Below, one piece after another: positions 10,421 to 57,759 of a stretch of DNA of 64,000 bases (position 1 is the first letter of the stretch; each line of letters begins with the position of its first letter). Below the pieces are notes generated by a model. It had not been told where the DNA came from, did not search any database, and saw only the letters and a program-made list of their open reading frames with translations. The stretch is from Oceanispirochaeta sp. GTDB taxonomy: Bacteria; Spirochaetota; Spirochaetia; DSM-2461. The stretch is taken from assembly GCA_963666275.2 (NCBI GenBank), contig CAXXOA010000001.1, forward strand, positions 864,001-928,000, written 5' to 3'. Position numbers and translations under genes: made by a program.

Positions 10421-10450
10421 TTGTAATTTTTTTACTTCCTTGGTTAAAAT
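10421..10450 (+). promoter_or_regulatory. Putative sigma70 promoter of the mtmB-like/ECF operon
   Basis: TTGTAA-18 bp-TAAAAT downstream of an AT-rich tract. Confidence 0.5.
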
Positions 10451-10455
10451 CTAGC

Positions 10456-10674
10456 ATGTCTGACATCTTGCGGGACTGTCAGAAGAAATTCCATGTGCAG
10501 ACATTGAGGACGGGAAGCCTGTTCGTACCAAGAGTACCGGGGTCGCACTATACACTACAAAGATTTACCGGTTACGGGGTCTGGTGGCTGTTGCATGGAA
10601 GTTCCTTTATCTCAACCCACGACAGCAAACCTCTCTCTTCCGGTGAGTATTCAGTTGAAAACTGGAGGATGTGC
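10456..10674 (+). ncRNA. Candidate structured 5' leader / riboswitch-like element, class unknown
   Basis: Hairpin TCTGACA..TGTCAGA; long stem TTCCATGTGCAG/CTGTTGCATGGAA; anti-SD stem TCTTCCGGT (10636-44) pairing ACTGGAGGA (10661-69). Confidence 0.45.
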
Positions 10675-12042
10675 ATGGTAGAGAACTATCTGGAATTAAC
10701 AAAAAGAATACATCAGGGAGAAGCCCAGTCCAAAGAGGATTGGGACTTCCGTATCATTGAGACGGTTCAGTCTCTGGTGGAAAAATACAGCCTGAGCTGG
10801 AACCGGGAGGAGCTGTGCTCCGAAGACGATGATCTGGCCGACCGGGTGTTTCAGGCAGGAAGAGAACTGCTCCTGACAACCGGAGTCTACGCTCTTTCCG
10901 AGGGCAGAGTTCTGCTCCTGGGAGAAGAGGAAGTGGACAGGGCCATGAAAGGGATGAATAAAACCCTGGTTATGGGAGAAGGCAAAGACAGCTACTCACT
11001 GGCTCCCCGGAAGGTCTGCGATACCAGGCCGCCTGCTGTCTGGGCGGGAAACCCCGGTGTCCCCACACCGGAAAGGCTATTCAAAGCGACTGTAAAAAGC
11101 TGGGCCCGGGAGAGCGTGGTGGATCTGATCACCTGCGGATCTCTTGTGGATGTGGACGGCTATAAGGTCGAATCCGGAGAGGTGAGCGAACTGCTGGCTT
11201 CACGGCGGGAACTGGAGCTGCTGAAACAGGTCCGGGAAGAGGTAGGCCGACCCGGAATGGGAATGCTTGCCGCAGAGAGCAGTGTCACCGAAATCGGTGA
11301 CCTGGCTGCAACCCACCCGGATCTGCTGCGTCCCTGTGATTCCCATCTGGTAGCCATGTTCAATGAGCTTATGATTGACCGGGGGAATATGGTCCGGGCG
11401 GCCAACTCCCTTTTCTACGGTATGGCCAATGCCTCTCTGGCGACTGTTATGGTCGGGGGTCTCGCAGGAGATGCTCACGGTGCCGCCATTGCGCAGGTTG
11501 CCTCTTTTCTGGCGGCGAACATTATCTGTCTGGCCGATTATCATCTGTGCCATCCCATTCATATACAGCATGTGGCCACTTCCACCAGAGGATGCCTCTG
11601 GCTGGAGAGCATTGTCTGTCAGGCCTTTGCCAGGAACGCACCGGCTATCATTGTCTGCGATATCTATCCCAAGAGCGGGGCAGTGACAAAAGAGCTCCTT
11701 TATGAGGTGGCAGCCAATGCCCTGGCGGCCTCAGTCAGCGGGGGCCACCTGGAAGGGGTCGGTTCCGCTGATGGAAGCCTGCCTCACGGAACCGGTCTGG
11801 AAGTCAGGCTGATGGGAGAAGTCGGACATGCCGCTGCGGGACTCAGCCGCAGCAGGGCCAATGGGATCATTCTGGAACTCCTGAAAAAATATGAACATGT
11901 TTTTGATCTGCCCGGAGGAAATCCCGGACTTCCTTTCGATCAGGCTTACGACATGGATACCCTGACACCCTCCCCTGAGTGGGAAGCAATGTACAATTCC
12001 GTCAGAAAAGAACTTGTTTCTCTGGGTCTGCCCCTGAAGTAA
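10675..12042 (+). CDS. MtmB-family (monomethylamine:corrinoid methyltransferase-like) protein without pyrrolysine
   Basis: 455 aa from the GGAGG-preceded ATG at 10675. MtmB-like motifs GRPGMG, DSHLVAMFNELMID, TGLEVRLMGEVGHAAAG and YDMDTLTP. No in-frame amber codon. Confidence 0.85.
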   Translation: MVENYLELTKRIHQGEAQSKEDWDFRIIETVQSLVEKYSLSWNREELCSEDDDLADRVFQAGRELLLTTGVYALSEGRVLLLGEEEVDRAMKGMNKTLVMGEGKDSYSLAPRKVCDTRPPAVWAGNPGVPTPERLFKATVKSWARESVVDLITCGSLVDVDGYKVESGEVSELLASRRELELLKQVREEVGRPGMGMLAAESSVTEIGDLAATHPDLLRPCDSHLVAMFNELMIDRGNMVRAANSLFYGMANASLATVMVGGLAGDAHGAAIAQVASFLAANIICLADYHLCHPIHIQHVATSTRGCLWLESIVCQAFARNAPAIIVCDIYPKSGAVTKELLYEVAANALAASVSGGHLEGVGSADGSLPHGTGLEVRLMGEVGHAAAGLSRSRANGIILELLKKYEHVFDLPGGNPGLPFDQAYDMDTLTPSPEWEAMYNSVRKELVSLGLPLK

Positions 12043-12097
12043 AAGTGGAAACCCCGTCCCGGTGGGGACTGGATATAAAACGTATAGGAGAAAAGAA

Positions 12098-12736
12098 ATG
12101 GTTGTCTACACGATTTTCAATGTGGCGGTAGTTATCGTCCTCGGTCTGGTTGCCCGTTTCACCAGTAAAAATGTGGTGGAAAAAGAGAGTAAGGGATACA
12201 CAACCCAGAATCTGGTCATTGTGGCCGTACTGGCTGCGATCGCCGGTGTTATCAACACAGGGATGGGAAATATCTGGTATCTGGCCAACACCTCTCTGGG
12301 ACCTCTGGGGGGAGCCCTGATTCAGGGGATGTTCATGTGGGCCTATATTCTGGCGGCTTTTATGGTAAGAAAACCCGGCGTGGCTCTGGCTTTCGGTATT
12401 ATCGAGTCGGCTACCGAGGTTATTCTGGGAAATGCCGCGGGAATCGGAACTCTCGGATGGGGAATCTCCCAGGGACTGGCCATTGAAGCCATTCTTCTTA
12501 TCTGCTCCTATAGACGTTTCGGTCTGGTTGCGGCGCTGATGGCGGGTATCGCCTCCTCACAGTTCGGTACTCTCTGGAGTTCCGTCTTCTACGGATGGGA
12601 TCCCTCCTATTCAAAGGACGTCTGGATGGCCGTTCCCATCAACATGATCTCCGGTGCCGTTTTCAGCGGTGGTCTGGGATACTTCCTGGCAACGAAAATT
12701 GCCAGAACAGGCCTGGTCCGTTCGTCCAGAGCCTAA
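12098..12736 (+). CDS. ECF transporter S component, YkoE-like
   Basis: Multi-TM protein with RKPGVAL..E and QGLAIEA..YRRF motifs; AGGAG RBS before the ATG at 12098. Confidence 0.8.
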   Translation: MVVYTIFNVAVVIVLGLVARFTSKNVVEKESKGYTTQNLVIVAVLAAIAGVINTGMGNIWYLANTSLGPLGGALIQGMFMWAYILAAFMVRKPGVALAFGIIESATEVILGNAAGIGTLGWGISQGLAIEAILLICSYRRFGLVAALMAGIASSQFGTLWSSVFYGWDPSYSKDVWMAVPINMISGAVFSGGLGYFLATKIARTGLVRSSRA

Positions 12737-12755
12737 AAAATAGCATTTGAAATAG

Positions 12756-12775
12756 GCGGCAGGTTTTCCTGCCGC
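12756..12775 (+). other. Intercistronic GC-rich hairpin
   Basis: GCGGCAGG-TTTT-CCTGCCGC with no following U-tract. Confidence 0.6.
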
Positions 12776-12785
12776 AAGGCAAAGG

Positions 12786-14525
12786 ATGCAGAATATGTCT
12801 GATATAGTTCAGCTGAAAAATGTTTCATTTCGATTTCAGGATAAAGAAAATCCTGTTCTGAAGGATCTTACTTTCTCCCTGAAAAAAGGATCCTTCAATA
12901 TCCTTGTCGGTCCCGGCGGGAGCGGAAAATCCACTCTCTGCAAGGTTCTGGACGGCCGGATCCCCCATCTCATTCCCGGGACTCTGGAGGGGCAGGTCCT
13001 TCTGGAGGGACGATCCACATCAGAAATCGCAATGAAAGATATTTCCTGCTGTGTGGGGTCAGTGTTTCAGGACCCCGAAACCATGTTTGCCACCCTGTCC
13101 GTGGAAGATGAGATCGCCTTCGGGCCGGAAAATCTTCTCCATCATAGGGATAAGATTCTCAGGGATGTGGATGAACTGCTTGAAATGACAGGAATCGGTC
13201 TTTACAGGCACAATCTTGTATGGAATCTGTCGGGTGGTCAGATCCAGAAACTGGGACTCGCAGCGGTTCTGGCCATGGAGCCCCGGCTGATTATTCTGGA
13301 TGAACCCACAGCCAACCTGGACCCGGCTGCTACCCGGCAGGTGCATGAGCTGATCCTGACTCTGAGGGAGAAGGGCATGACAGTGCTTCTTGTGACCAGA
13401 GAACTGGATGATTTTATGGCAGAAGCCGACAGTGTGCTTGTTCTCAGAGAAGGATCTCTTGCTTATCAGGATGAGCCCTACAGCCTTCTGAAAGAGCATG
13501 GCTGTGATATGGAGAGCCTGGGGATCTGGCTGCCTGAAACTGTAGAGATCGGTCTGGGGCTCCTGAGGACAAACCATCCTCTTGAAAGGATCCCCATTAC
13601 CGTGGATGAAACTATTGCGCTTCTGGATTCTCTGAATCTCTGTCCTCCCGGTACGGAACTCACAGGACGGCCGGATGCAGAGACAAGCTCAGAGTCCGCC
13701 CTGATCCGGGGCCGTAACATCAAGTTCAGCTACGGAGGCGGACTGTATGCATTAAAGGGGATCGACCTTGAAATCCGGGAAGGAGAGATGCTTGCCATTG
13801 TGGGAAGAAACGGAGCCGGCAAGAGTACCATGGCCAGACTGCTTATCGGATTAAACAAGTGCCGGGAAGGGGAACTGACCCTTTTCGGCAAAGCTTCGGA
13901 GAAATGGAAAGTTCCCGATCTTGCCAATCATATCTCTCTGGTTTTTCAGAATCCGGAACACCAGTTTCTTACGGATACTGTTGCCGAAGAGATCGAATAC
14001 AGTCTCCAGTCCCAGGTGGTATTCGACACAGAGGAAATCTCCACCCGGAGAGATGAAATACTGGAAATGCTGAATCTTCAGAATGAGAAAGACAGTCATC
14101 CCTTTGCCCTGAGTGCTGGGAATAAACGGAGACTGGGGGTTGCTACCATGCTCGTGGGCGACCCCGGGGTTCTGATCGTGGATGAACCTACCTACGGGCA
14201 GGACAAGGAGATGACAAGCACCCTTATGAAGCTCATGACAGATATCCGGGCCAGAGGGATCGCGGTAGTCATGATCAGTCATGATATGCGGCTGGTTGCG
14301 GAATATGCCGACAGGGTCGTGGTTTTCAGCGAAGGAAAAAAGCATTTTGACGGATTACCCACGGAGCTTTTCAGTAAATCGGATATTCTCGACAAGGCCA
14401 GCCTCCAGCCAACCCTGCTGTTTCAGATCCTTCAGAAACTGTCCCGAAAAGGGGTCCTCTGTTCCGGAAATATCCCCGGCACCGATGCTCTTCTTAAAAT
14501 GCTCGTAGATCCGGTGGAGGTTTGA
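12786..14525 (+). CDS. ECF transporter duplicated ATPase, YkoD-like
   Basis: Two Walker A motifs (GPGGSGKS, GRNGAGKS), LSGGQ/LSAGN signatures and two DEPT motifs. Confidence 0.92.
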   Translation: MQNMSDIVQLKNVSFRFQDKENPVLKDLTFSLKKGSFNILVGPGGSGKSTLCKVLDGRIPHLIPGTLEGQVLLEGRSTSEIAMKDISCCVGSVFQDPETMFATLSVEDEIAFGPENLLHHRDKILRDVDELLEMTGIGLYRHNLVWNLSGGQIQKLGLAAVLAMEPRLIILDEPTANLDPAATRQVHELILTLREKGMTVLLVTRELDDFMAEADSVLVLREGSLAYQDEPYSLLKEHGCDMESLGIWLPETVEIGLGLLRTNHPLERIPITVDETIALLDSLNLCPPGTELTGRPDAETSSESALIRGRNIKFSYGGGLYALKGIDLEIREGEMLAIVGRNGAGKSTMARLLIGLNKCREGELTLFGKASEKWKVPDLANHISLVFQNPEHQFLTDTVAEEIEYSLQSQVVFDTEEISTRRDEILEMLNLQNEKDSHPFALSAGNKRRLGVATMLVGDPGVLIVDEPTYGQDKEMTSTLMKLMTDIRARGIAVVMISHDMRLVAEYADRVVVFSEGKKHFDGLPTELFSKSDILDKASLQPTLLFQILQKLSRKGVLCSGNIPGTDALLKMLVDPVEV

Positions 14526-14526
14526 T

Positions 14527-15303
14527 ATGGCTGAAAATTTTCTGAGTTTCAAAGAGAGACGTTCCTATCTCAACCGGGTTTATCCTCTTGTAAAACTAAT
14601 CTGGGTGTTCTGCGTGGCCGTAGGACTTTTTCTATTTAAAAGTTCTCTCCCCGGGGCGGTTATGTTCATATATATTCTGTTTCTGGCCCTGGCGGGAGGA
14701 AAAATCTCACTCCGGGAGATCCTGAGAAGCGGGATCGTGGTTTTCGGACTGGGGTTTCTTCTGATGCTGTTCCATTTTTTCATCGATCCCGGTCAGGTGG
14801 TCTGGTCTCTGGGATTCCTCACAGTTACCGATACGGGACTTCTCCAGGGGCCTGTCTTCTTTTTCCGGCTTTCTGTCATTGTTCTTGCCAGTTTCATACT
14901 GATCTGGTCCACTGATACCCGGGACCTGATGACCTCTCTTGTAAAGGCGGGTATGCCCTACAGATACGCCTATACGATCTTTCTGGCCCTGAGATTTCTA
15001 CCACTGATACAGAAAGAGGTGGAGTCCGTGAAAGCGGCCCATGCCATAAGAGGAAAAGCCGGGGGATCCAATATGGCTCACCGTTTCAAGCTATGGCAGA
15101 GGTATGTATTCACCATCCTGATCAACGGGATTCGCAAGGCCGAATCCACCGCAGATGCTCTGGAATGCCGGGCTTTCGGCTTCAGTGATAAAAGAACCTA
15201 TGTTAAGGATGTAAATTTCAGGAAACGGGATCTGATCCTGCTGCTGTTTACCCTGCTGCTTGAGATTCTTCTGGTCCTTTTAGACCGGGGGATAATCCTG
15301 TAA
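14527..15303 (+). CDS. ECF transporter T component (CbiQ/EcfT family)
   Basis: ALRFLPLI plus the two conserved Arg motifs AHAIRG and ALECRAF. Confidence 0.9.
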   Translation: MAENFLSFKERRSYLNRVYPLVKLIWVFCVAVGLFLFKSSLPGAVMFIYILFLALAGGKISLREILRSGIVVFGLGFLLMLFHFFIDPGQVVWSLGFLTVTDTGLLQGPVFFFRLSVIVLASFILIWSTDTRDLMTSLVKAGMPYRYAYTIFLALRFLPLIQKEVESVKAAHAIRGKAGGSNMAHRFKLWQRYVFTILINGIRKAESTADALECRAFGFSDKRTYVKDVNFRKRDLILLLFTLLLEILLVLLDRGIIL

Positions 15304-16858: not shown

Positions 16859-17578
16859 ATGGGGATTAAAACGGCCATCATTGCTGATGATTTTACAGGC
16901 GCCGGAGACTCGAGTATCTATTTCTCACTCCGGGGGTACGGACGGACCATGAGCAATATCCTCATAACAGGCGAAACCGGAACATGAAAGGAACTTCTGG
17001 CCCAGAGCATTCATAATGCCAGTCCTGTCAGAGAAGGCCATTTTGTAGTTGTCAACTGCAGCGCCCTGTCGGCTACTCCCCTGGAAAGCGAACTTTTCGG
17101 CTATGTGGGAGGCTCTTTTACAGAGGCTTCGAAAGGAGGAAAAACCGGCTTTTTTGAACTGGCCCATCAGGGGACCATCTTTCTGGATGAGATCATTCCT
17201 CTTTTTAAATATTTCGTATTTGCCATTGCCCGCAGATGGAAGCAGCTGGAGACTAAAATTACCCTGTCAAGAGAGTTCGAAACGGCCCTGCTGCGTTACT
17301 CCTGGCCGGGAAACGTGAGAGAGCTTGAAAACCTTGTGGAAAAATACATGACCCTCCTGCAGATCGACACAAAAGAGAATGTGGAGAATCTCCTGAAGGA
17401 AAAACTGAGAGAGACGGATAATTCCTGTGAGGATATTCTCTGGGAAGGGGCTCTCAAGGAGATCGAATCCAGAATCATAACTGATGCTCTGGAGCAGGAA
17501 GATCATAATATCTCCTGGACTGCCGCCAGGCTGCAGATAGACAGAAATACTCTGAAGCGGAAACTTTCGGAGAACTAG
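16859..17578 (+). pseudogene. Chimeric relic: four-carbon sugar-acid kinase (DUF1537/DtnK-like) N-terminus fused in frame to a broken sigma54 activator
   Basis: MGIKTAIIADDFTGAGD runs into ILITGETGT*KE (TGA at 16985 inside Walker A), then ESELFGY..GSFTEA and FLDEI, an apparent deletion near 17194, WPGNVREL and a Fis-type HTH. Confidence 0.8.
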
Positions 17579-17664
17579 GCCTCTTTTTTATCTTCCTTTT
17601 GAAGCAATGGAGAATTTTACTCTGTAATATCTCTTAGAAAATGTTAAAATATAAGGGAGATATT

Positions 17665-18114
17665 ATGGGAGAACCTCAAGTGGACCAGAACCAATTAGAT
17701 CAAATTGGAGATTTTGTAAAAAGTCATCTTGGACAGTGGATACAGGAACAGAATATTTCTCTTTTTCCAGTAAGAGATAAGTCCCTTGATAAGGAACTTC
17801 TGGAAAGAATGATCCGGGTGGAAGAAGGTTTGAAAAATCAGATGGAACTGACCCGTCAGGGATTTGAAAATATGGAGAAACGTTTTATTGAACGTTTTGA
17901 AGCTGTTGATAAAAGGTTCGAGGCCGTGGATAAACGCTTCGAGGCCGTGGATAAGCACTTTGAGGCCGTGGATAAGCACTTTGAGGCCGTGGATAAAAGG
18001 TTTGAAGATATGCAGCACTATATGGACAAGCGTTTTAATGTTCAAACATGGATTATCAGTGCAGGTTTCGCCATGATGACAATACTGATGTCTCTCTATC
18101 GGTTCTTTGGTTAA
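17665..18114 (+). CDS. Coiled-coil heptad-repeat protein with C-terminal TM helix
   Basis: GGAG RBS; (K)RFEAVD repeats; hydrophobic C-terminus. An alternative start exists at 17641. Confidence 0.75.
   Translation: MGEPQVDQNQLDQIGDFVKSHLGQWIQEQNISLFPVRDKSLDKELLERMIRVEEGLKNQMELTRQGFENMEKRFIERFEAVDKRFEAVDKRFEAVDKHFEAVDKHFEAVDKRFEDMQHYMDKRFNVQTWIISAGFAMMTILMSLYRFFG
17893..18006 (+). repeat. 21-bp in-frame tandem repeat, 5 copies plus a partial copy
   Basis: Unit like cactttgaggccgtggataag, encoding (R/H)FEAVDK. Confidence 0.9.
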
Positions 18115-18201: not shown

Positions 18202-19082
18202 ATGAAACAGAAAATTTCTGCCTCCCTTAACGAGGCATTCGGCTTCGACTCCTTCCGGAAGGGCCAGGAGGATGTGATAACAAAAATATTAAGCGGAGAC
18301 TCGGCGGCGGCTATTTTTCCCACCGGGGCGGGGAAGTCCCTCTGTTATCAGCTGCCGGCTCTGCTGCTGCCGGGAATGACTCTTGTTGTCTCTCCTCTCC
18401 TGTCCCTGATGAAGGACCAGCTGGATTTTCTGAGTTCCAGGAACATACCCGCCGCCAGGCTGGATTCGTCTCTGAGCAGTGAAGAGTACAGTTCCGTCAT
18501 AGCCAGGGCCTCCCGGGGGGATCTCAGAATCCTGATGATATCGGTGGAGCGTTTCCGTAATGAGAGGTTCAGGAATTATCTGAAAAATATGAGGATTTCG
18601 CTCCTCGCTGTTGATGAAGCTCACTGTATTTCCGAATGGGGGCACAACTTCCGCCCCGAGTATCTGCGTCTTCCCGAATACAGAGCGGAGTTCGCTATAG
18701 AGCAGGTACTCCTGCTGACTGCAACGGCAACACGGTCTGTGGCAGATGATATGTGCCGGAAATTCAGGGTAAAACCGGAAAACCTTGTGTCCACAGGTTT
18801 CTACAGGGCCAATCTTCATCTGGCAGTGATTCCCCTGGAAAGGTCGGAAAAAAGAGATAGACTTCTTCAGGATCTTTCAGAACAACCTGATGCGCCTTCG
18901 ATTGTCTATGTGACCCTTCAGAAAACAGCGGAAAATCTGGCCTTCTGGCTGAAAGAACAGGGTGTGGATGCTTCTTCCTATCACAGCGGTATGAAAAATG
19001 ATGAGAGGACGGCCATACAGAACCGTTTTATGCAGGGAGAACTGAACTGCGTTGTTGCCACCATCGCCTTCGGGATGGGGAT
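18202..19082 (+). pseudogene. recQ: RecQ-family helicase, 5' half, interrupted by the island
   Basis: PTGAGKSLCYQLP, VDEAHCISEWGHNFRPEY, LTATA and VVATIAFGMGI; the native continuation is at 35567. Confidence 0.9.
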
Positions 19083-19428
19083 AAACAAGCCCAATGTTAC
19101 GCATTGTAGTGCACTACGATCTGCCCAAAAATGTGGAAAATTATTACCAACAGATTGGCCGGGCCGGATGTAACGGACTGGATTTCCACTGCCTGCGGCT
19201 CTTCAATAACGGCGATAACTGCGGCAGCTGATCTCCTATCAGGAAGAATACGGGCTGCTGGATAAAGAAGCTCTGGAACGGGCCATGAATCTGGATGAGG
19301 AATTACGGAATAGGATCGCAAGACTCATCGAAATCCTGGGAGAAGGCCGTTTGAAGCAGATTCAGCAGGAACTGGGCGACCAGGTGAATATGAATCAGCT
19401 GAAGATGATGGTTCTTTGGAACACATAA
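19083..19428 (+). pseudogene. Degenerate 3' remnant of a second, different recQ
   Basis: After a frameshift it reads [23 protein letters not shown], then in another frame a C-terminal HTH-like tail LIEILGEGRLKQIQQELGDQVNMNQLKMMVLWNT*. Confidence 0.75.
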
Positions 19429-20849: not shown

Positions 20850-23399
20850 ATGAATGGAAAACACAATTTTGATGAAGTTCGCAAAATTGCTTATCCCACA
20901 ATTTCCCATGAACTGCTGGAGATAATATGTACAGGTAAAGAAGCAACGAATGAACAGAAAAAAGAAATTGCGGCTATTTCCCATGACTTGGGCAAAAATT
21001 ACTATCCCGAAATTCTGTTTCTGTTAACCTTCAATGAAATAGATAATCCGCAATTGGCCGAAAAGATCTGCCGTAAAATAGCCGTGCATAAAAAGAGCCT
21101 GGAAGAAAAAATCGGAAGACCTATTCTCCTGGAACTTGCGGCTAGAGACTATATTCAATGTAACCACCATGCAGACTCTTCCCTTATGAGAAATCAGGGG
21201 AAAATAATTACCCAAATAGCCAGACAGGCCATAAGAGACAATAATACCAACTGTTTTACTGCAGTACAGCTCCAAATCGATTTACAAAAAGAAATTGATC
21301 GATCTTATCGATATGGATCAACTTTTTCCATTATTATGATCGATTTAGACAATTTTAAAAGAATAAATGATTCCTTTGGCCACCAAAAGGGAGATCAGGT
21401 ATTACAATTTTTTGCTTCTCTCATAGAGGAGCATCTTCGGAAACCGGACAATCTCTATCGTTTCGGGGGAGACGAATTCCTCATTCTTCTTCCACAAACA
21501 AATATCAAAGGGACAGGTCAAATAGCCGATAAGCTGATTAAGCTTTTAAATACCACCACATGCGAAACCATTGATCAGACCATATCGATCAGTATGGGAA
21601 TCTCATCTTTTGAAAATAATCATGGTCACAGCCGCGAAGAAATAATAAAGAATGCAGACCAGGCTCTTTTCAAGGCAAAAAGTGAGGGGAAAAACCAAAT
21701 TGCTCTCTGGATAAATGGAAAATGTGAAATATTGGATTCTGGAAAAGATGCCTCACCCCAAAAACCGGCAGAAAGGAATATTAAAATCTCCTGCCATAAG
21801 ATTATACCTGGATGTGCTATCGGCCGTATATTTATTTTTGATGACAATTTCACCAGCCGAGTCAGGCAATACGATATAAAAGAGAACGAAAAAAAAGAGG
21901 AGCTGGAAAGAATAAAGAGGGCCATTAGCAGTGTTGCCGATGATCTATCAAAAATGGAGAGTAATGTAAATGAAGAATTAAATAAGGATCATGGGGCCAT
22001 TTTTCTTGTCCATAAAATGATTCTTCAGGATATTTCCATCATAAATGACATAGAAACGGAATTAGGCGACAGGTTACTGAATGGAGAGATAATCGTTAGA
22101 GATATTTTTCGGAGACTGGAAAAAAGGTTTCTCCTTTTTGAAGATGAGCAACGCCGGGAAAAGGCAAAAGATATAAGGGATATTGCCGGTAGACTAGTTA
22201 GAAAGCTTCAAGGGAAGGACCATAATATCCTTTCATCACTTCCGAAAAACACCATTCTCGTATCTCAAAGACTTCTCCCTTCTGATACGGTATTTATTGA
22301 TAAAAAACATGTAAAGGCGATCATCACTGGTGAAGGCAGCCGTGGTTCACATTCTGCTATACTGGCCCGTGCATTGGGCATTCCCTATGTAACCATCGAT
22401 AGGAAGATTGATATACTGCCCAATAAATCTCATGTGATTGTAGACAGTGATGGCAGAACCATATTCATTAACCCCGATGCGATTCTTTCAGATAAGTACA
22501 AAGAGCGGATAAAAGAGGAATCTAAAGAAAATCAGGAGCAGGATATTTCCTGGGAACCCATCGAATTCGGTGGAAGAAAGATATCGATATTAGCCAATGT
22601 TTCCTCTGAAGAGGAAGCCCTTGATGCCCTGTCATCCCATGCGGAGGGTGTGGGTCTATTACGGGTGGAAACCATATATTTATCCAGTCAGATTATGCCT
22701 GATGAGGATTTTCTTCTGTCCCGTTTCATGGAGATTCTAACTCCTCTCAAAGGAAAAGAGATAACCATCAGACTGCTGGATATAGGATCGGATAAAGTTC
22801 CTTCCTATCTGGATCTGGGGAATGAAATTAATCCGGCTCTGGGGCTCAGGGGAATCCGGCTTCTCCTGAAACATAAAAAACTTCTCAAGACTCAGCTATC
22901 CGCCTGCATCAGACTGAACAGAGAGATCCCTGTGAAAATTTTGCTACCCATGGTTTCACTCCCCTCGGAAGTACGGACCGTACGTCACTTAATGAAGGAA
23001 ATCGAGGGAGGGGGAAATATTCAAATAGGGGCGATGATAGAAACGCCAGCATCTTTGTTTCAATTGGATGAGATTATTGAAGTATCAGACTTTATCAGCG
23101 TGGGAACAAATGATCTGTTTCAGTACACCATGACTGCAGACAGGGAAAACAATGAAGTGGCAGAGTATTTTGACAAGGGCTTCCAGATCCTGGAAAATAC
23201 GATAGAGGAAATATTCAGGAAGTCCAGAGAAGCGGGTAAAGACTGTACCGTCTGCGGAGAAATAGCGGGAGACAGCGACCATATTTATGCCATGCTGAAA
23301 AAGGGTCTTACCCAGTTCAGTGTATTACCCAACCTTATTAAGAGGGTCAGGCGGGAAATCTTCGATTACGCTGAGAAAAGCAAGGAGACTACTTTGTAG
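20850..23399 (+). CDS. GGDEF domain-PTS Enzyme I (PtsI/PtsP-like) fusion
   Basis: RKPD..RFGGDEF followed by EI motifs GSHSAILARALGIP, NPALGLRGIR, MIETP, GTNDLFQY and VCGE. Confidence 0.9.
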   Translation: MNGKHNFDEVRKIAYPTISHELLEIICTGKEATNEQKKEIAAISHDLGKNYYPEILFLLTFNEIDNPQLAEKICRKIAVHKKSLEEKIGRPILLELAARDYIQCNHHADSSLMRNQGKIITQIARQAIRDNNTNCFTAVQLQIDLQKEIDRSYRYGSTFSIIMIDLDNFKRINDSFGHQKGDQVLQFFASLIEEHLRKPDNLYRFGGDEFLILLPQTNIKGTGQIADKLIKLLNTTTCETIDQTISISMGISSFENNHGHSREEIIKNADQALFKAKSEGKNQIALWINGKCEILDSGKDASPQKPAERNIKISCHKIIPGCAIGRIFIFDDNFTSRVRQYDIKENEKKEELERIKRAISSVADDLSKMESNVNEELNKDHGAIFLVHKMILQDISIINDIETELGDRLLNGEIIVRDIFRRLEKRFLLFEDEQRREKAKDIRDIAGRLVRKLQGKDHNILSSLPKNTILVSQRLLPSDTVFIDKKHVKAIITGEGSRGSHSAILARALGIPYVTIDRKIDILPNKSHVIVDSDGRTIFINPDAILSDKYKERIKEESKENQEQDISWEPIEFGGRKISILANVSSEEEALDALSSHAEGVGLLRVETIYLSSQIMPDEDFLLSRFMEILTPLKGKEITIRLLDIGSDKVPSYLDLGNEINPALGLRGIRLLLKHKKLLKTQLSACIRLNREIPVKILLPMVSLPSEVRTVRHLMKEIEGGGNIQIGAMIETPASLFQLDEIIEVSDFISVGTNDLFQYTMTADRENNEVAEYFDKGFQILENTIEEIFRKSREAGKDCTVCGEIAGDSDHIYAMLKKGLTQFSVLPNLIKRVRREIFDYAEKSKETTL

Positions 23400-55413: not shown

Positions 55414-57759
55414 ATGAACAAAAAGTTGGTTATTCTGATTTTAGTATTGAGCCTTTACCCTCTTGCTTCCCAATCACTCAGCGACAGTGAAATCTTCCGG
55501 GAGTACGATAAGAGGATAGACAGGATTCAGACGGATCTGGATTATGTCTGGGTTCTTATTTCCGCTGCCCTTGTCTTTTTTATGCAGCCCGGTTTTATGG
55601 CACTCGAAGCGGGTATGGCCCGATCCAAAAACTCCATCAATGTTTCCATTAAAAATCTGACAGATTTTGTTCTGGGAGTCATCGGTTTCTGGATTATCGG
55701 ATTCGGCCTGATGTTTGGTAAATCCCATGGCGGCCTTTTCGGGACAAGCGATTTTCTTATCTCCATTGAAGATCCCTGGATCGCTGTATTTTTCATGTTT
55801 CAGTCCGTTTTTGTCGGTACAGCTGCCACCATCGATTCAGGAGCTATCTGCGAAAGGGCCAAGCTGAAGCAGTATATTCTTCTGTCTTTCCTCCTCTCCA
55901 TTTTCATCTATCCCGTTTTCGGTCACTGGGTCTGGGGAAGTTTTCTTCATGGAACAGATCCCTCTACCGGAGGCATGGGTTGGCTGGAAGCCCTGGGGTT
56001 CAAGGATTTTGCCGGGTCCTCAGTCGTTCACAGTCTGGGAGGATGGATGGCTCTGGCGGGGACTATTGTTGTGGGCCCCAGACTTGGCAAATTTCAGACC
56101 GATCCGGTTACGGGAAAACCCGGGGCATCCAATACCATTTATCCCGGTGACATGCGCTTTGTATTCCTGGGGACATTTATCCTGTTCTTCGGATGGTTCG
56201 GATTCAACTGCGGCTCCACACTGACGGCAACGCCCGATATAGCCTCGATTGCACTGAATACCACCCTGGCTGCCTGTTTCGGCTGTGTCGTTTCATCCGG
56301 TCTGAGTTGGATTTTTCATCCTGAAAAGAAAATTGAAGGGACTATGATTGCCAATGGGATTCTGGGAGGTCTGGTGGCCATCACAGCGGGATGTGCCTTT
56401 GTGGATACTTTTTCCTCCGCCCTGATCGGTGCCGTGGCGGGGATCGTTGTCTACGGATCGTCTATTCTTCTGGAAAGGGTATTCAAGCTGGATGATGTGG
56501 TCGGAGCTGTGCCTGTGCATGGATTCTGCGGAGTCTGGGGCACTCTGGCCGTAGGTTTTTTTATCCGTCCGGAACTTCTTGAAGAGATGACACGTTTTGA
56601 TCAGATAAAAGTACAGGCACTGGGAGTTCTTGTCTGTTTCGGATGGGCTTTCGGTCTGGGGCTTCTGCTCTACAAACTGGTAGACAGGTTTGCCGGGGGT
56701 GTGAGAGTTTCCATGGAAGACGAGATCTGCGGTCTCAATGTGGCGGAGCACGGAGCAAAATCCACCCTTCTGGAACTGGCCAACAGCATGAACGAACTGA
56801 CAAACCGCGGCAATTTTGAAGATCACAGGGGAATTGATGTTGAGACAGGAACCGAGGTAGGGGATCTGGCTGAAATTTTCAATAAACTTATTTCAAAAAT
56901 CAGTGAAGCCCTCAAAGAGAGCCGGCAGCAGCAGGATCTGGCAGAAAAGATGCTGAGGGAATCAAGAAAACAGCAGTCCCTGGCGGAAAAAGCCCAGTCA
57001 GATCTGAAAGACAATAAACAGGCGGCAGACCTGCTCCGGAAAGAGTACATCAGGAATACAGGAGAGATGGTGGGATCCGTCATCTCACGGAATGAAGAGA
57101 TCCGGAAGATGATGGAGGATACCTCGGCCGTAACGGAGCAGATGTTTTCCTCCTCCAGCACCCTCACGGAAACTCTGAACCGCATGCTGGAGTCTCTGAC
57201 AGGGGGATTTTCAAAAATCCATGAGGTCAATTCCATGTCAAAATCCGCTTCCGGCTATGCTGTCAGAACAAGGGATGTAATCTATGAGTTGCGGGAAATC
57301 TCCAGTGAAATACGTGAGATGATCCAGTTTATCAATGATATTGCGGAAAAAACCCACGTCCTGTCCATCAATTCCGCCATTGAAGCCGCCAGAACCGGCT
57401 CCAGGGGGCATGGATTCACTGTCATTTCCAAAGAGGTTCAGCAGCTTTCGGGACAGACGACAGAGACAGCCCAGAGCATCGGGAAAAAAGTAGAGGGGAT
57501 ATCGTCCACAATTTCTACAGTGGTGGAATCCATGGACAATATTACAAATATCATCGGGCAGGTTGATCTTATGAATAATGAGATCCTTACAATTATAGAG
57601 GAGAACGAAAACTTTACCAAACTTCTAGAAAATCAGTCCCATGAGACTCTCAGCGCCGTTGAGCATGTCAGTTCGGATGTAAAAACCATGGCGGAACAGG
57701 TTTCTGAAGTGTCAGGTATCGGTCAGAAGGTACTTGGAAAACTGAAAGAGATGGGATAA
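55414..57759 (+). CDS. Ammonium transporter (Amt) fused to a methyl-accepting chemotaxis signalling domain
   Basis: FFMQPGFMALEAG, DFAGSSVVH, GWFGFN and DDVVGAVPVHG, then IAEKTHVLSINSAIEAARTGSRGHGFTVISKEV. Confidence 0.9.
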   Translation: MNKKLVILILVLSLYPLASQSLSDSEIFREYDKRIDRIQTDLDYVWVLISAALVFFMQPGFMALEAGMARSKNSINVSIKNLTDFVLGVIGFWIIGFGLMFGKSHGGLFGTSDFLISIEDPWIAVFFMFQSVFVGTAATIDSGAICERAKLKQYILLSFLLSIFIYPVFGHWVWGSFLHGTDPSTGGMGWLEALGFKDFAGSSVVHSLGGWMALAGTIVVGPRLGKFQTDPVTGKPGASNTIYPGDMRFVFLGTFILFFGWFGFNCGSTLTATPDIASIALNTTLAACFGCVVSSGLSWIFHPEKKIEGTMIANGILGGLVAITAGCAFVDTFSSALIGAVAGIVVYGSSILLERVFKLDDVVGAVPVHGFCGVWGTLAVGFFIRPELLEEMTRFDQIKVQALGVLVCFGWAFGLGLLLYKLVDRFAGGVRVSMEDEICGLNVAEHGAKSTLLELANSMNELTNRGNFEDHRGIDVETGTEVGDLAEIFNKLISKISEALKESRQQQDLAEKMLRESRKQQSLAEKAQSDLKDNKQAADLLRKEYIRNTGEMVGSVISRNEEIRKMMEDTSAVTEQMFSSSSTLTETLNRMLESLTGGFSKIHEVNSMSKSASGYAVRTRDVIYELREISSEIREMIQFINDIAEKTHVLSINSAIEAARTGSRGHGFTVISKEVQQLSGQTTETAQSIGKKVEGISSTISTVVESMDNITNIIGQVDLMNNEILTIIEENENFTKLLENQSHETLSAVEHVSSDVKTMAEQVSEVSGIGQKVLGKLKEMG

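What the first reader, a model, noticed from the sequence alone, without database searches (positions are those of the whole stretch)
10675..15303. Pyrrolysine-free MtmB homolog coupled to a dedicated YkoEDC-like ECF importer, with no corrinoid partner nearby
Seen: a full-length MtmB-like ORF reading RPGMGMLAAE, followed by S, AA and T ECF genes. No corrinoid protein, activase or pyl genes occur in the window. Established: methanogen MtmB carries pyrrolysine in the RPGMGV-O-GPE motif; non-Pyl members of the MttB family act on other methylated amines; YkoE-type S components bind thiamine-related micronutrients. Inference: Leu replaces Pyl, so the substrate is not methylamine. Linkage to a micronutrient-type transporter suggests import and (de)methylation of an unknown cofactor or precursor rather than bulk methylotrophy.
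Basis: partly seen in the sequence, partly recalled or inferred. Interest (0 to 1): 0.75.

Follow-up and report, generated by a model that had tools for sequence, protein, structure and literature searches.

The report
Pyrrolysine-free demethylase operon with riboswitch candidate
A spirochaete operon joins a pyrrolysine-free relative of the methanogens' methylamine enzyme to its own high-affinity importer, behind a conserved structured RNA leader that matches no catalogued family; gene neighbours in relatives suggest it likely strips methyl groups from imported methylated adenine-type bases without oxygen.

Summary
Confirmed: an intact MtmB homologue (Leu at Pyl202) followed by ECF S, AA and T genes, with no corrinoid gene in the window. 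It belongs to a conserved non-Pyl clade with its own active-site signature. In 43 of 54 loci an importer lies within 1 kb (17 ECF, 22 NCS2-like, 4 BMP-ABC); adenine deaminase is adjacent in 6. The missing partner is only a local absence: the genome has one stand-alone corrinoid protein and one activase elsewhere, and 10 Anaerolineales members have a corrinoid gene next door. The S component keeps YkoE's ring-binding Glu and Gln but not its thiazole contacts or TPP riboswitch. Best reading (0.5): corrinoid-dependent N-demethylation of an imported methylated adenine-type base; the substrate is inferred from context only. The scan noted this clade six times before on other DNA, once with the leader. 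New variant of a known kind.

The parts
10421..10450 (+). sigma-70-like promoter candidate (9 of 12 matches)
   Evidence: 5 sites found against 4.3 expected in shuffles, so only its position supports it
10486..10551 (+). conserved structured leader RNA, three helices around an almost invariant 20-nt core (10502-10521); riboswitch candidate
   Evidence: no Rfam match over the motif
10552..10674 (+). variable rest of the leader, with a segment (10587-10600) complementary to the 5' end of the motif and the Shine-Dalgarno sequence at 10664-10668; possible expression platform
   Evidence: switching test inconclusive
10675..12042 (+). non-pyrrolysine MtmB homologue, 455 aa; clade signature C154, L198, L225, L255, H293, D329, E360
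11266..11268 (+). CTT (Leu198) at the position of Pyl202 of M. barkeri MtmB
12098..12736 (+). ECF S component, YkoE-related subfamily (PF09819), 212 aa; keeps E77 and Q95 equivalents, has W49F and Y46Q
12786..14525 (+). ECF ATPase with two fused ABC domains (YkoD-like)
14527..15303 (+). ECF T component (PF02361)

Best explanation
The operon encodes an intact pyrrolysine-free MtmB-fold protein and a dedicated ECF importer, which together likely take up a scarce N-methylated adenine-type base and likely move its methyl group onto a corrinoid protein encoded elsewhere in the genome. Shown: genes, fold, residue changes, conserved linkage, the remote corrinoid and activase genes, the conserved leader. 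Inferred: (1) the S component binds an aminopyrimidine-edged base; (2) the enzyme methylates cob(I)alamin on the single stand-alone corrinoid protein (G000 C2, 2265.5-2266.2 kb), kept reduced by the neighbouring activase; (3) the freed adenine is salvaged or deaminated by the genome's own adenine deaminase; (4) the methyl group goes to homocysteine or to one of the scattered UroD-type methyltransferases, not to acetogenesis; (5) the leader RNA senses the substrate or a product. Which methyl-adenine (N6-, N6,N6-, 1-, 3- or 7-) is not resolved.
For: Importer within 1 kb in 43 of 54 loci: 22 NCS2-like, 17 ECF, 4 BMP-ABC. The permease's nearest Pfam-bearing cluster is Xan_ur_permease (0.90, 174 shared features) and its model falls in the UraA/SLC26 fold. 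The BMP is PnrA-like. Adenine deaminase is adjacent in 6 of 54 loci on three separate branches, and in the sister pair L149/L150 and in L151; L012, L026 and L149 pass the TIGR01178 cut-off. E. coli AdeC does not deaminate N6-methyl- or N6,N6-dimethyladenine (PMC13296781, section 3.4), so an upstream demethylase makes sense. Other neighbours are nucleoside or purine catabolic: 5'-deoxyadenosine deaminase and Xdh-like genes (L147), phosphorylase, MtnA-like isomerase and aldolase (L143). G408 and G409 have the same leader and enzyme but the permease in place of the ECF. S subfamily: E77 and Q95 equivalents 120 of 120, Y46Q and W49F 120 of 120, D131 lost; four canonical YkoE controls keep Y and W and all have a TPP riboswitch. 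Corrinoid dependence: corrinoid gene within 1 kb in 10 of 54 loci, homocysteine methyltransferase nearby in 2; activase in 34 of 36 clade genomes, and within the family in 7 of 7 carriers against 7 of 16 non-carriers.
Against: No activity, ligand or expression data. 48 of 54 loci have no adjacent adenine deaminase, and 4 of the 6 that do are near-identical Robinsoniella-like genomes. The permease has no Pfam or NCBIfam hit, its model is poor (pLDDT 56) and its top fold hits are SLC26 anion transporters; comparison with the genome's own AzgA-like protein was not significant (probability 1.5%). The BMP's only NCBIfam hit is a putative B6 binding protein, below cut-off. L147 has a cytosine-deaminase-like gene two genes upstream, and L142/L143 have MtnA-like genes, which fit other substrates. 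Neutral N-methyl purines are poor methyl donors and activation by D329, E360 and H293 is conjecture. Binding to the remote corrinoid protein was not tested. Related genomes are not independent.
Confidence: 0.5

Rival explanations
1. Same corrinoid chemistry, but the donor is another methylated base or nucleoside: methyl-cytosine, methyl-guanine or methylxanthine, or an S-methyl adenine nucleoside such as methylthioadenosine.
For: Cytosine-deaminase-like, 5'-deoxyadenosine deaminase and Xdh-like genes in L147/L148; MtnA-like, aldolase and phosphorylase genes in L142/L143. E77 and Q95 would fit any 4-aminopyrimidine edge. Some S homologues also hit the Trep_Strep family. Invariant C154, H293, D329 and E360 could hold a metal.
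Against: Adenine deaminase is the only catabolic neighbour that recurs on separate branches; NCS2-type permeases carry bases rather than nucleosides (own knowledge).
Confidence: 0.2
2. It is not a substrate demethylase: the barrel either runs in reverse, methylating an imported base, or has become a corrinoid-independent hydrolase or lyase for a purine.
For: No corrinoid gene within 1 kb in 44 of 54 loci; all three MtmB active-site positions became Leu and a new Cys/His/Asp/Glu set is invariant.
Against: Members with the same signature sit beside corrinoid, activase and second-methyltransferase genes; activase in 34 of 36 genomes; this genome keeps 11-12 UroD-family genes away from its single corrinoid gene, so remote partners are its norm.
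Confidence: 0.12
3. It is an amine demethylase like MtqB (choline, tetramethylammonium) or takes methylamine released from N6-methyladenine by a deaminase.
For: The only characterised non-Pyl MtmB demethylates choline and tetramethylammonium and has low MMA activity (PMC13044021).
Against: No amine or betaine transporter family among the neighbours scanned; positions of Glu229 and Glu259 are Leu in 156 of 156 rows (their role in amine binding is recalled); the tested deaminase L012 is closest to the AdeC-type Atu4426 structure, and AdeC rejects N6-methyladenine (PMC13296781).
Confidence: 0.1
4. One reading: the ECF imports a thiamine-related or other cofactor precursor that the enzyme (de)methylates.
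For: YkoE is the only PDB relative of the S component, and the pyrimidine-binding Glu and Gln are kept.
Against: No TPP riboswitch in the window or in eight related leaders, against 4 of 4 canonical YkoE controls; thiazole contacts lost; no thiamine pathway gene recurs among the neighbours scanned; the ECF is replaced by nucleobase-type importers in most loci.
Confidence: 0.08

Closest known systems
MtmB, monomethylamine:corrinoid methyltransferase of Methanosarcina barkeri (PDB 1L2Q, 1NTH; PF05369)
   Same: Full-length fold (TM 0.95, rmsd 1.5, 31% identity), RPGMG motif, family membership by Pfam.
   Different: Leu at Pyl202, Glu229 and about Glu259; new invariant C154, H293, D329, E360; bacterial host with no PylB over cut-off and no MttB; no adjacent corrinoid gene.
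MtqB of Methanococcoides methylutens Q3c (PMC13044021; parts 1, 3 and 4 of 6 read, supplements not seen)
   Same: Non-Pyl MtmB homologue that methylates cob(I)alamin; precedent for new substrates in this family.
   Different: MtqB has an adjacent cognate corrinoid gene and serves methanogenesis from choline or tetramethylammonium; the paper leaves the other non-Pyl clades without function. Its sequence was not compared here.
YkoEDC group I ECF transporter of Bacillus subtilis (PDB 5EDL; PMC5037267, passages read)
   Same: S, fused double ATPase and T in one operon; ring-binding Glu77 and Gln95 kept.
   Different: Trp49 to Phe, Tyr46 to Gln, Asp131 to Ser/Thr; extra N-terminal segment; no TPP riboswitch, a different leader RNA instead.
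MtgBCDE split methionine synthase and betaine demethylase of Ruegeria pomeroyi (PMC12478193, passages read)
   Same: One shared corrinoid protein links a substrate methyltransferase to methionine synthesis; Anaerolineales loci L142 and L144 have that layout with this clade.
   Different: MttB-family enzyme and glycine betaine there; in this genome the link to methionine is inferred only.
N6-methyladenine deaminases Bh0637 and Bsu06560, and AlkB-type dioxygenases (as described in PMC13296781)
   Same: Remove methyl groups from modified adenines.
   Different: They release methylamine hydrolytically or need oxygen; the proposed route would keep the methyl group on cobalamin.

Membership tests
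MtmB family (PF05369) | full-length sequence and TIM-barrel fold match | tested here: met
Pyl-dependent monomethylamine methyltransferase | in-frame amber codon / pyrrolysine at position 202 | tested here: not met
   Leu in 156 of 156 rows
Pyl-dependent monomethylamine methyltransferase | Glu229 and Glu259 in the active site (role recalled, not from a call) | tested here: not met
   Leu225 and Leu255 invariant; the 259 register rests on closing a 2-residue gap
Pyl-dependent monomethylamine methyltransferase | pyl biosynthesis genes in the genome | tested here: not met
   no PylB over cut-off; PylS, PylC and PylD not searched; genome 97% complete
Corrinoid-dependent three-component methyltransferase systems | corrinoid protein and reductive activase available | tested here: met
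   both on contig C2; activase in 34 of 36 clade genomes
Corrinoid-dependent three-component methyltransferase systems | stand-alone methyl-THF or CoM second methyltransferase | tested here: inconclusive
   pterin-binding hits are FolP and MetH only; 12 UroD-family hits of unknown role
Corrinoid-dependent three-component methyltransferase systems | substrate-dependent methylation of cob(I)alamin | not testable with these tools
   needs an anaerobic assay
MtqB clade (choline / tetramethylammonium) | branching with MtqB and its aromatic and sulfur residue pocket | not tested
Group I ECF transporter | S, A and T genes in one dedicated operon | tested here: met
   S subfamily in 7 of 14 clade genomes and 0 of 66 others
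YkoE thiamine transporter | Trp49, Glu77, Gln95, Tyr46, Asp131 | tested here: not met
   only Glu77 and Gln95 kept; Phe, Gln and Ser/Thr at the others
YkoE thiamine transporter | TPP riboswitch upstream | tested here: not met
   4 of 4 canonical controls have one
Riboswitch | conserved structured RNA in the 5' leader with compensatory changes | tested here: met
   5 of 18 pairs with two-sided changes, 98% of cells paired; 14 related sequences
Riboswitch | expression platform that switches with aptamer folding | tested here: inconclusive
   alternative long-range pairing appears in several leaders, but SD access did not change consistently in the 9 of 14 leaders folded
Riboswitch | direct, selective ligand binding | not testable with these tools
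   needs in-line probing
Any Rfam 15 family | match to a covariance model | tested here: not met
   only chance-level eukaryotic or sRNA hits far below gathering scores

The most novel reading that the evidence does not exclude
This is an oxygen-independent, cobalamin-dependent N-demethylation pathway for methylated adenine, spread across gut and sediment anaerobes of at least five phyla, and in these spirochaetes it is controlled by an undescribed riboswitch class that senses a methylated purine.
Probability: 0.25. Interest if true: 0.85.

Novelty: new variant of a known kind. Interest (0 to 1): 0.62.

Why it matters
Only one non-Pyl MtmB has a demonstrated function, and the 2026 paper leaves the rest of its 1,061-sequence tree unassigned. 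This clade has a fixed active-site signature and a short substrate list, so it is directly testable with a cob(I)alamin assay. If right, it gives anaerobes a way to recycle modified bases from RNA and DNA turnover while keeping the methyl group, adds nucleobases to the donors of corrinoid methyltransferases, and assigns a ligand class to an ECF S subfamily and an unclassified permease family. The leader RNA is a compact riboswitch candidate whose ligand would name the substrate independently.

Tried and rejected
Upstream ATG at 10456 as the start: rejected; homologues begin at 10675 and motif-to-ATG distances (175-225 nt in 9 leaders) are not in one frame. Leader peptide: a four-codon ORF overlaps the motif in some copies but is absent in others. 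Known RNA families: none. Motif elsewhere: 8 further two-mismatch pattern hits in a 401-genome phylum sample, 5 in the order and 2 of 6 metagenome hits had no MtmB gene or no motif structure; model R1 gave only weak hits (about 20 bits, not followed up) outside the family, so no second regulated gene was found to name the ligand. SD-switch folding: inconclusive; 5 of 14 leaders dropped because no start was located. The phosphoribosyltransferase beside L025 is PyrE-type and was dropped as purine evidence. Profile comparison of the permease with the genome's AzgA-like protein: not significant (one search used too short a fragment). No PDB sequence relative of the permease. Samples of 200, 180 and 200 genomes from three other orders or classes gave no further clade member. 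No RNA holder listed for this stretch. Complex prediction with the corrinoid protein was not available. The tree is the quick IQ-TREE search only. Literature: no paper holds MtmB, adenine deaminase and corrinoid together; searches listed none on this clade or this RNA; the library lacks most subscription journals.
Full report
Observation. The first encodes 455 aa from the ATG at 10675, matches PF05369 at E 7.6e-93 and aligns end to end with M. barkeri MtmB, with Leu198 on Pyl202. The AlphaFold model (pLDDT 92.8) superposes on 1L2Q/1NTH at TM 0.95. S, double-ATPase and T genes follow at short spacing; the database protein for S starts at 12098. The host is a member of Spirochaetota (tree labels); named close homologues are from Oceanispirochaeta. 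The genome (97% complete) has one MtmB, no MttB and no PylB over cut-off.

The clade. The word search returned 1,273 homologues among 8,000 scored candidates. In an alignment of 156 close rows (some duplicated between two searches) Leu198, Leu225 (at Glu229) and Leu255 (at about Glu259) are invariant, as are Cys154, His293, Asp329 and Glu360; 33 more distant MtmB-family rows do not share this set. That Glu229 and Glu259 bind the amine in MtmB is recalled, not read here. A quick tree of 69 rows groups 51 rows with this signature (support 94), with L149/L150 as sister (support 99). The clade is patchy: 12 of 38 genomes of the host's order, 12 of 201 Anaerolineales at the chosen threshold, one of them the more distant L151 protein, and none beyond the centre genome in three other samples.

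The corrinoid partner. It is absent from the window but not from the genome. Contig C2 carries a 211-aa stand-alone corrinoid protein, an AraC-type regulator and a 609-aa activase. Twelve UroD-family hits are scattered elsewhere, away from that corrinoid gene, so remote partners are normal here. The activase is present in 34 of 36 genomes behind loci L001-L036, and within the family in 7 of 7 carriers against 7 of 16 non-carriers. Ten Anaerolineales members with the same signature have a corrinoid gene within 1 kb, four an activase and two a homocysteine methyltransferase nearby. The genome has no stand-alone methyl-THF methyltransferase: its two pterin-binding hits are FolP and MetH. This fits salvage rather than growth on methyl groups. 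Direct binding was not tested.

What is imported. Of 54 loci, 43 have an importer within 1 kb: 22 an unclassified 510-530-aa permease, 17 this ECF, 4 a BMP-family ABC system; several of the other 11 end at a contig edge, and one of them (G406) has the S gene next door. The permease has no Pfam or NCBIfam hit; its nearest annotated cluster is the xanthine/uracil permease family and its low-confidence model falls in the UraA/SLC26 fold, with SLC26 ranked first. Two genomes of the host's own genus have the same leader and enzyme followed by this permease instead of the ECF, which suggests that both carry the same solute. Adenine deaminase is adjacent in 6 of 54 loci on three branches, four of them near-identical genomes, and again in the sister pair and L151. 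Other neighbours are a 5'-deoxyadenosine deaminase, Xdh-like genes, a cytosine-deaminase-like gene, a nucleoside phosphorylase, MtnA-like isomerases and a class II aldolase. E. coli AdeC accepts only unmethylated adenine (PMC13296781, abstract and section 3.4 read), and the L012 deaminase is closest to the AdeC-type structure 3NQB, so a demethylase upstream of it is logical.

The S component. In YkoE, Trp49, Glu77 and Gln95 hold the pyrimidine ring and Tyr46 and Asp131 the thiazole (PMC5037267, passages). In 120 of 120 close homologues Glu and Gln are kept, Trp is Phe, Tyr is Gln and Asp is Thr or Ser. Four canonical YkoE genes found as controls keep Tyr and Trp and all have a TPP riboswitch; the window and eight related leaders have none. 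Five Anaerolineae loci also had none, but those stretches may not reach the operon leader. The subfamily was found in 7 of 14 clade genomes and 0 of 66 others, so it is dedicated. An aminopyrimidine edge without a thiazole fits adenine, but also cytosine or HMP.

The leader RNA. Comparing upstream regions showed a conserved element 175-225 nt before the start codon, at 10486-10551 here. All 12 order genomes with the gene have it directly upstream, and no non-carrier has a real copy; one further genome and four metagenome contigs agree. Fourteen copies fold into three helices; 98% of cells pair, 5 of 18 pairs have two-sided changes (11 of 500 shuffles reach that count, 0 of 500 reach the covariation score), and slid controls fall to 31-43%. 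The sequences are related and one helix never varies, so this is support, not proof. Rfam has no match. A model built from the copies finds strong hits only at these leaders among 80 and 19 genomes and none in the other phyla; those strong hits are its own training set. A downstream segment can pair with the motif's 5' end, but ribosome-site access did not switch consistently. I put the chance that it is a ligand-binding riboswitch at about one half.

Mechanism. Most likely the ECF imports a scarce N-methylated adenine-type base; the MtmB-fold enzyme transfers the methyl group to Co(I) on the shared corrinoid protein; adenine is salvaged or deaminated by the genome's own deaminase, which lies in a purine-transport cluster; the methyl group passes to homocysteine or a UroD-type enzyme. 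The homocysteine domain of MetH is a separate ORF here, which would allow that. Every chemical step is inferred. Confidence 0.5; rivals are another methylated base or nucleoside (0.2), reverse or corrinoid-free chemistry (0.12), amines (0.1) and a thiamine-like precursor (0.08).

Comparison and novelty. The protein is a member of the MtmB family but fails the tests for a Pyl-dependent MMA methyltransferase. MtqB is the only non-Pyl MtmB with a shown function, and it has low MMA activity (PMC13044021, parts 1, 3 and 4 of 6; supplements unseen and may list this clade). The mlp clusters (PMC10418091; abstract, first half of Results, passages) do not mention MtmB. Seven literature searches listed nothing on this clade or RNA, within the limits of an open-access library. 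Earlier notes of this scan reached the same methyl-adenine idea on other DNA, one with the leader; I recorded my reading before seeing them, and they are not independent evidence. Verdict: real, conserved, a new variant of a known kind, with an untested substrate and a testable RNA candidate. Interest 0.62.

Noticed in passing
window 20850-23399 (+): 849-aa ORF with a GGDEF domain fused to a complete PTS enzyme I (N-terminal, mobile and PEP-binding domains).
   Followed up: no
window 55414-57759 (+): Ammonium transporter (Amt) fused to a methyl-accepting chemotaxis signalling domain, 781 aa.
   Followed up: no
window 17641-18114 (+): 157-aa ORF with a run of 7-residue repeats and a C-terminal hydrophobic segment; no Pfam hit.
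   Followed up: no
window 17105-17578 (+) and 18202-19173 (+): A short sigma-54 activator fragment and a RecQ-like helicase ORF that looks truncated.
   Followed up: no
G000 C1:438299-441678 (-): Methionine synthase in two overlapping ORFs: a 311-aa homocysteine part and an 816-aa folate, B12 and reactivation part.
   Followed up: partly
G000, several places: Twelve UroD/MtaA-like hits, several beside sugar ABC or TRAP transporters, with only one stand-alone corrinoid protein and one activase in the genome.
   Followed up: partly
L137 (G408 C2, about 2.82 Mb) and L138: A second, distant non-Pyl MtmB (28-29% identity) in an operon with BMP-ABC, activase, corrinoid protein, DUF1638 and xanthine-dehydrogenase-like genes; possibly another purine demethylase.
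   Followed up: partly
L149, L150: Anaerolineales island with five MtmB paralogues, corrinoid proteins, adenine deaminase, BMP-ABC and (L149) an MttB gene.
   Followed up: partly
loci L050-L078: 16 of 17 sampled genomes of one Spirochaetota family carry one to four MtmB-family genes of other clades, some in tandem.
   Followed up: no
L012:9435-10985 and relatives: A 510-530-aa permease family with no Pfam or NCBIfam model and a predicted UraA/SLC26-type fold.
   Followed up: partly
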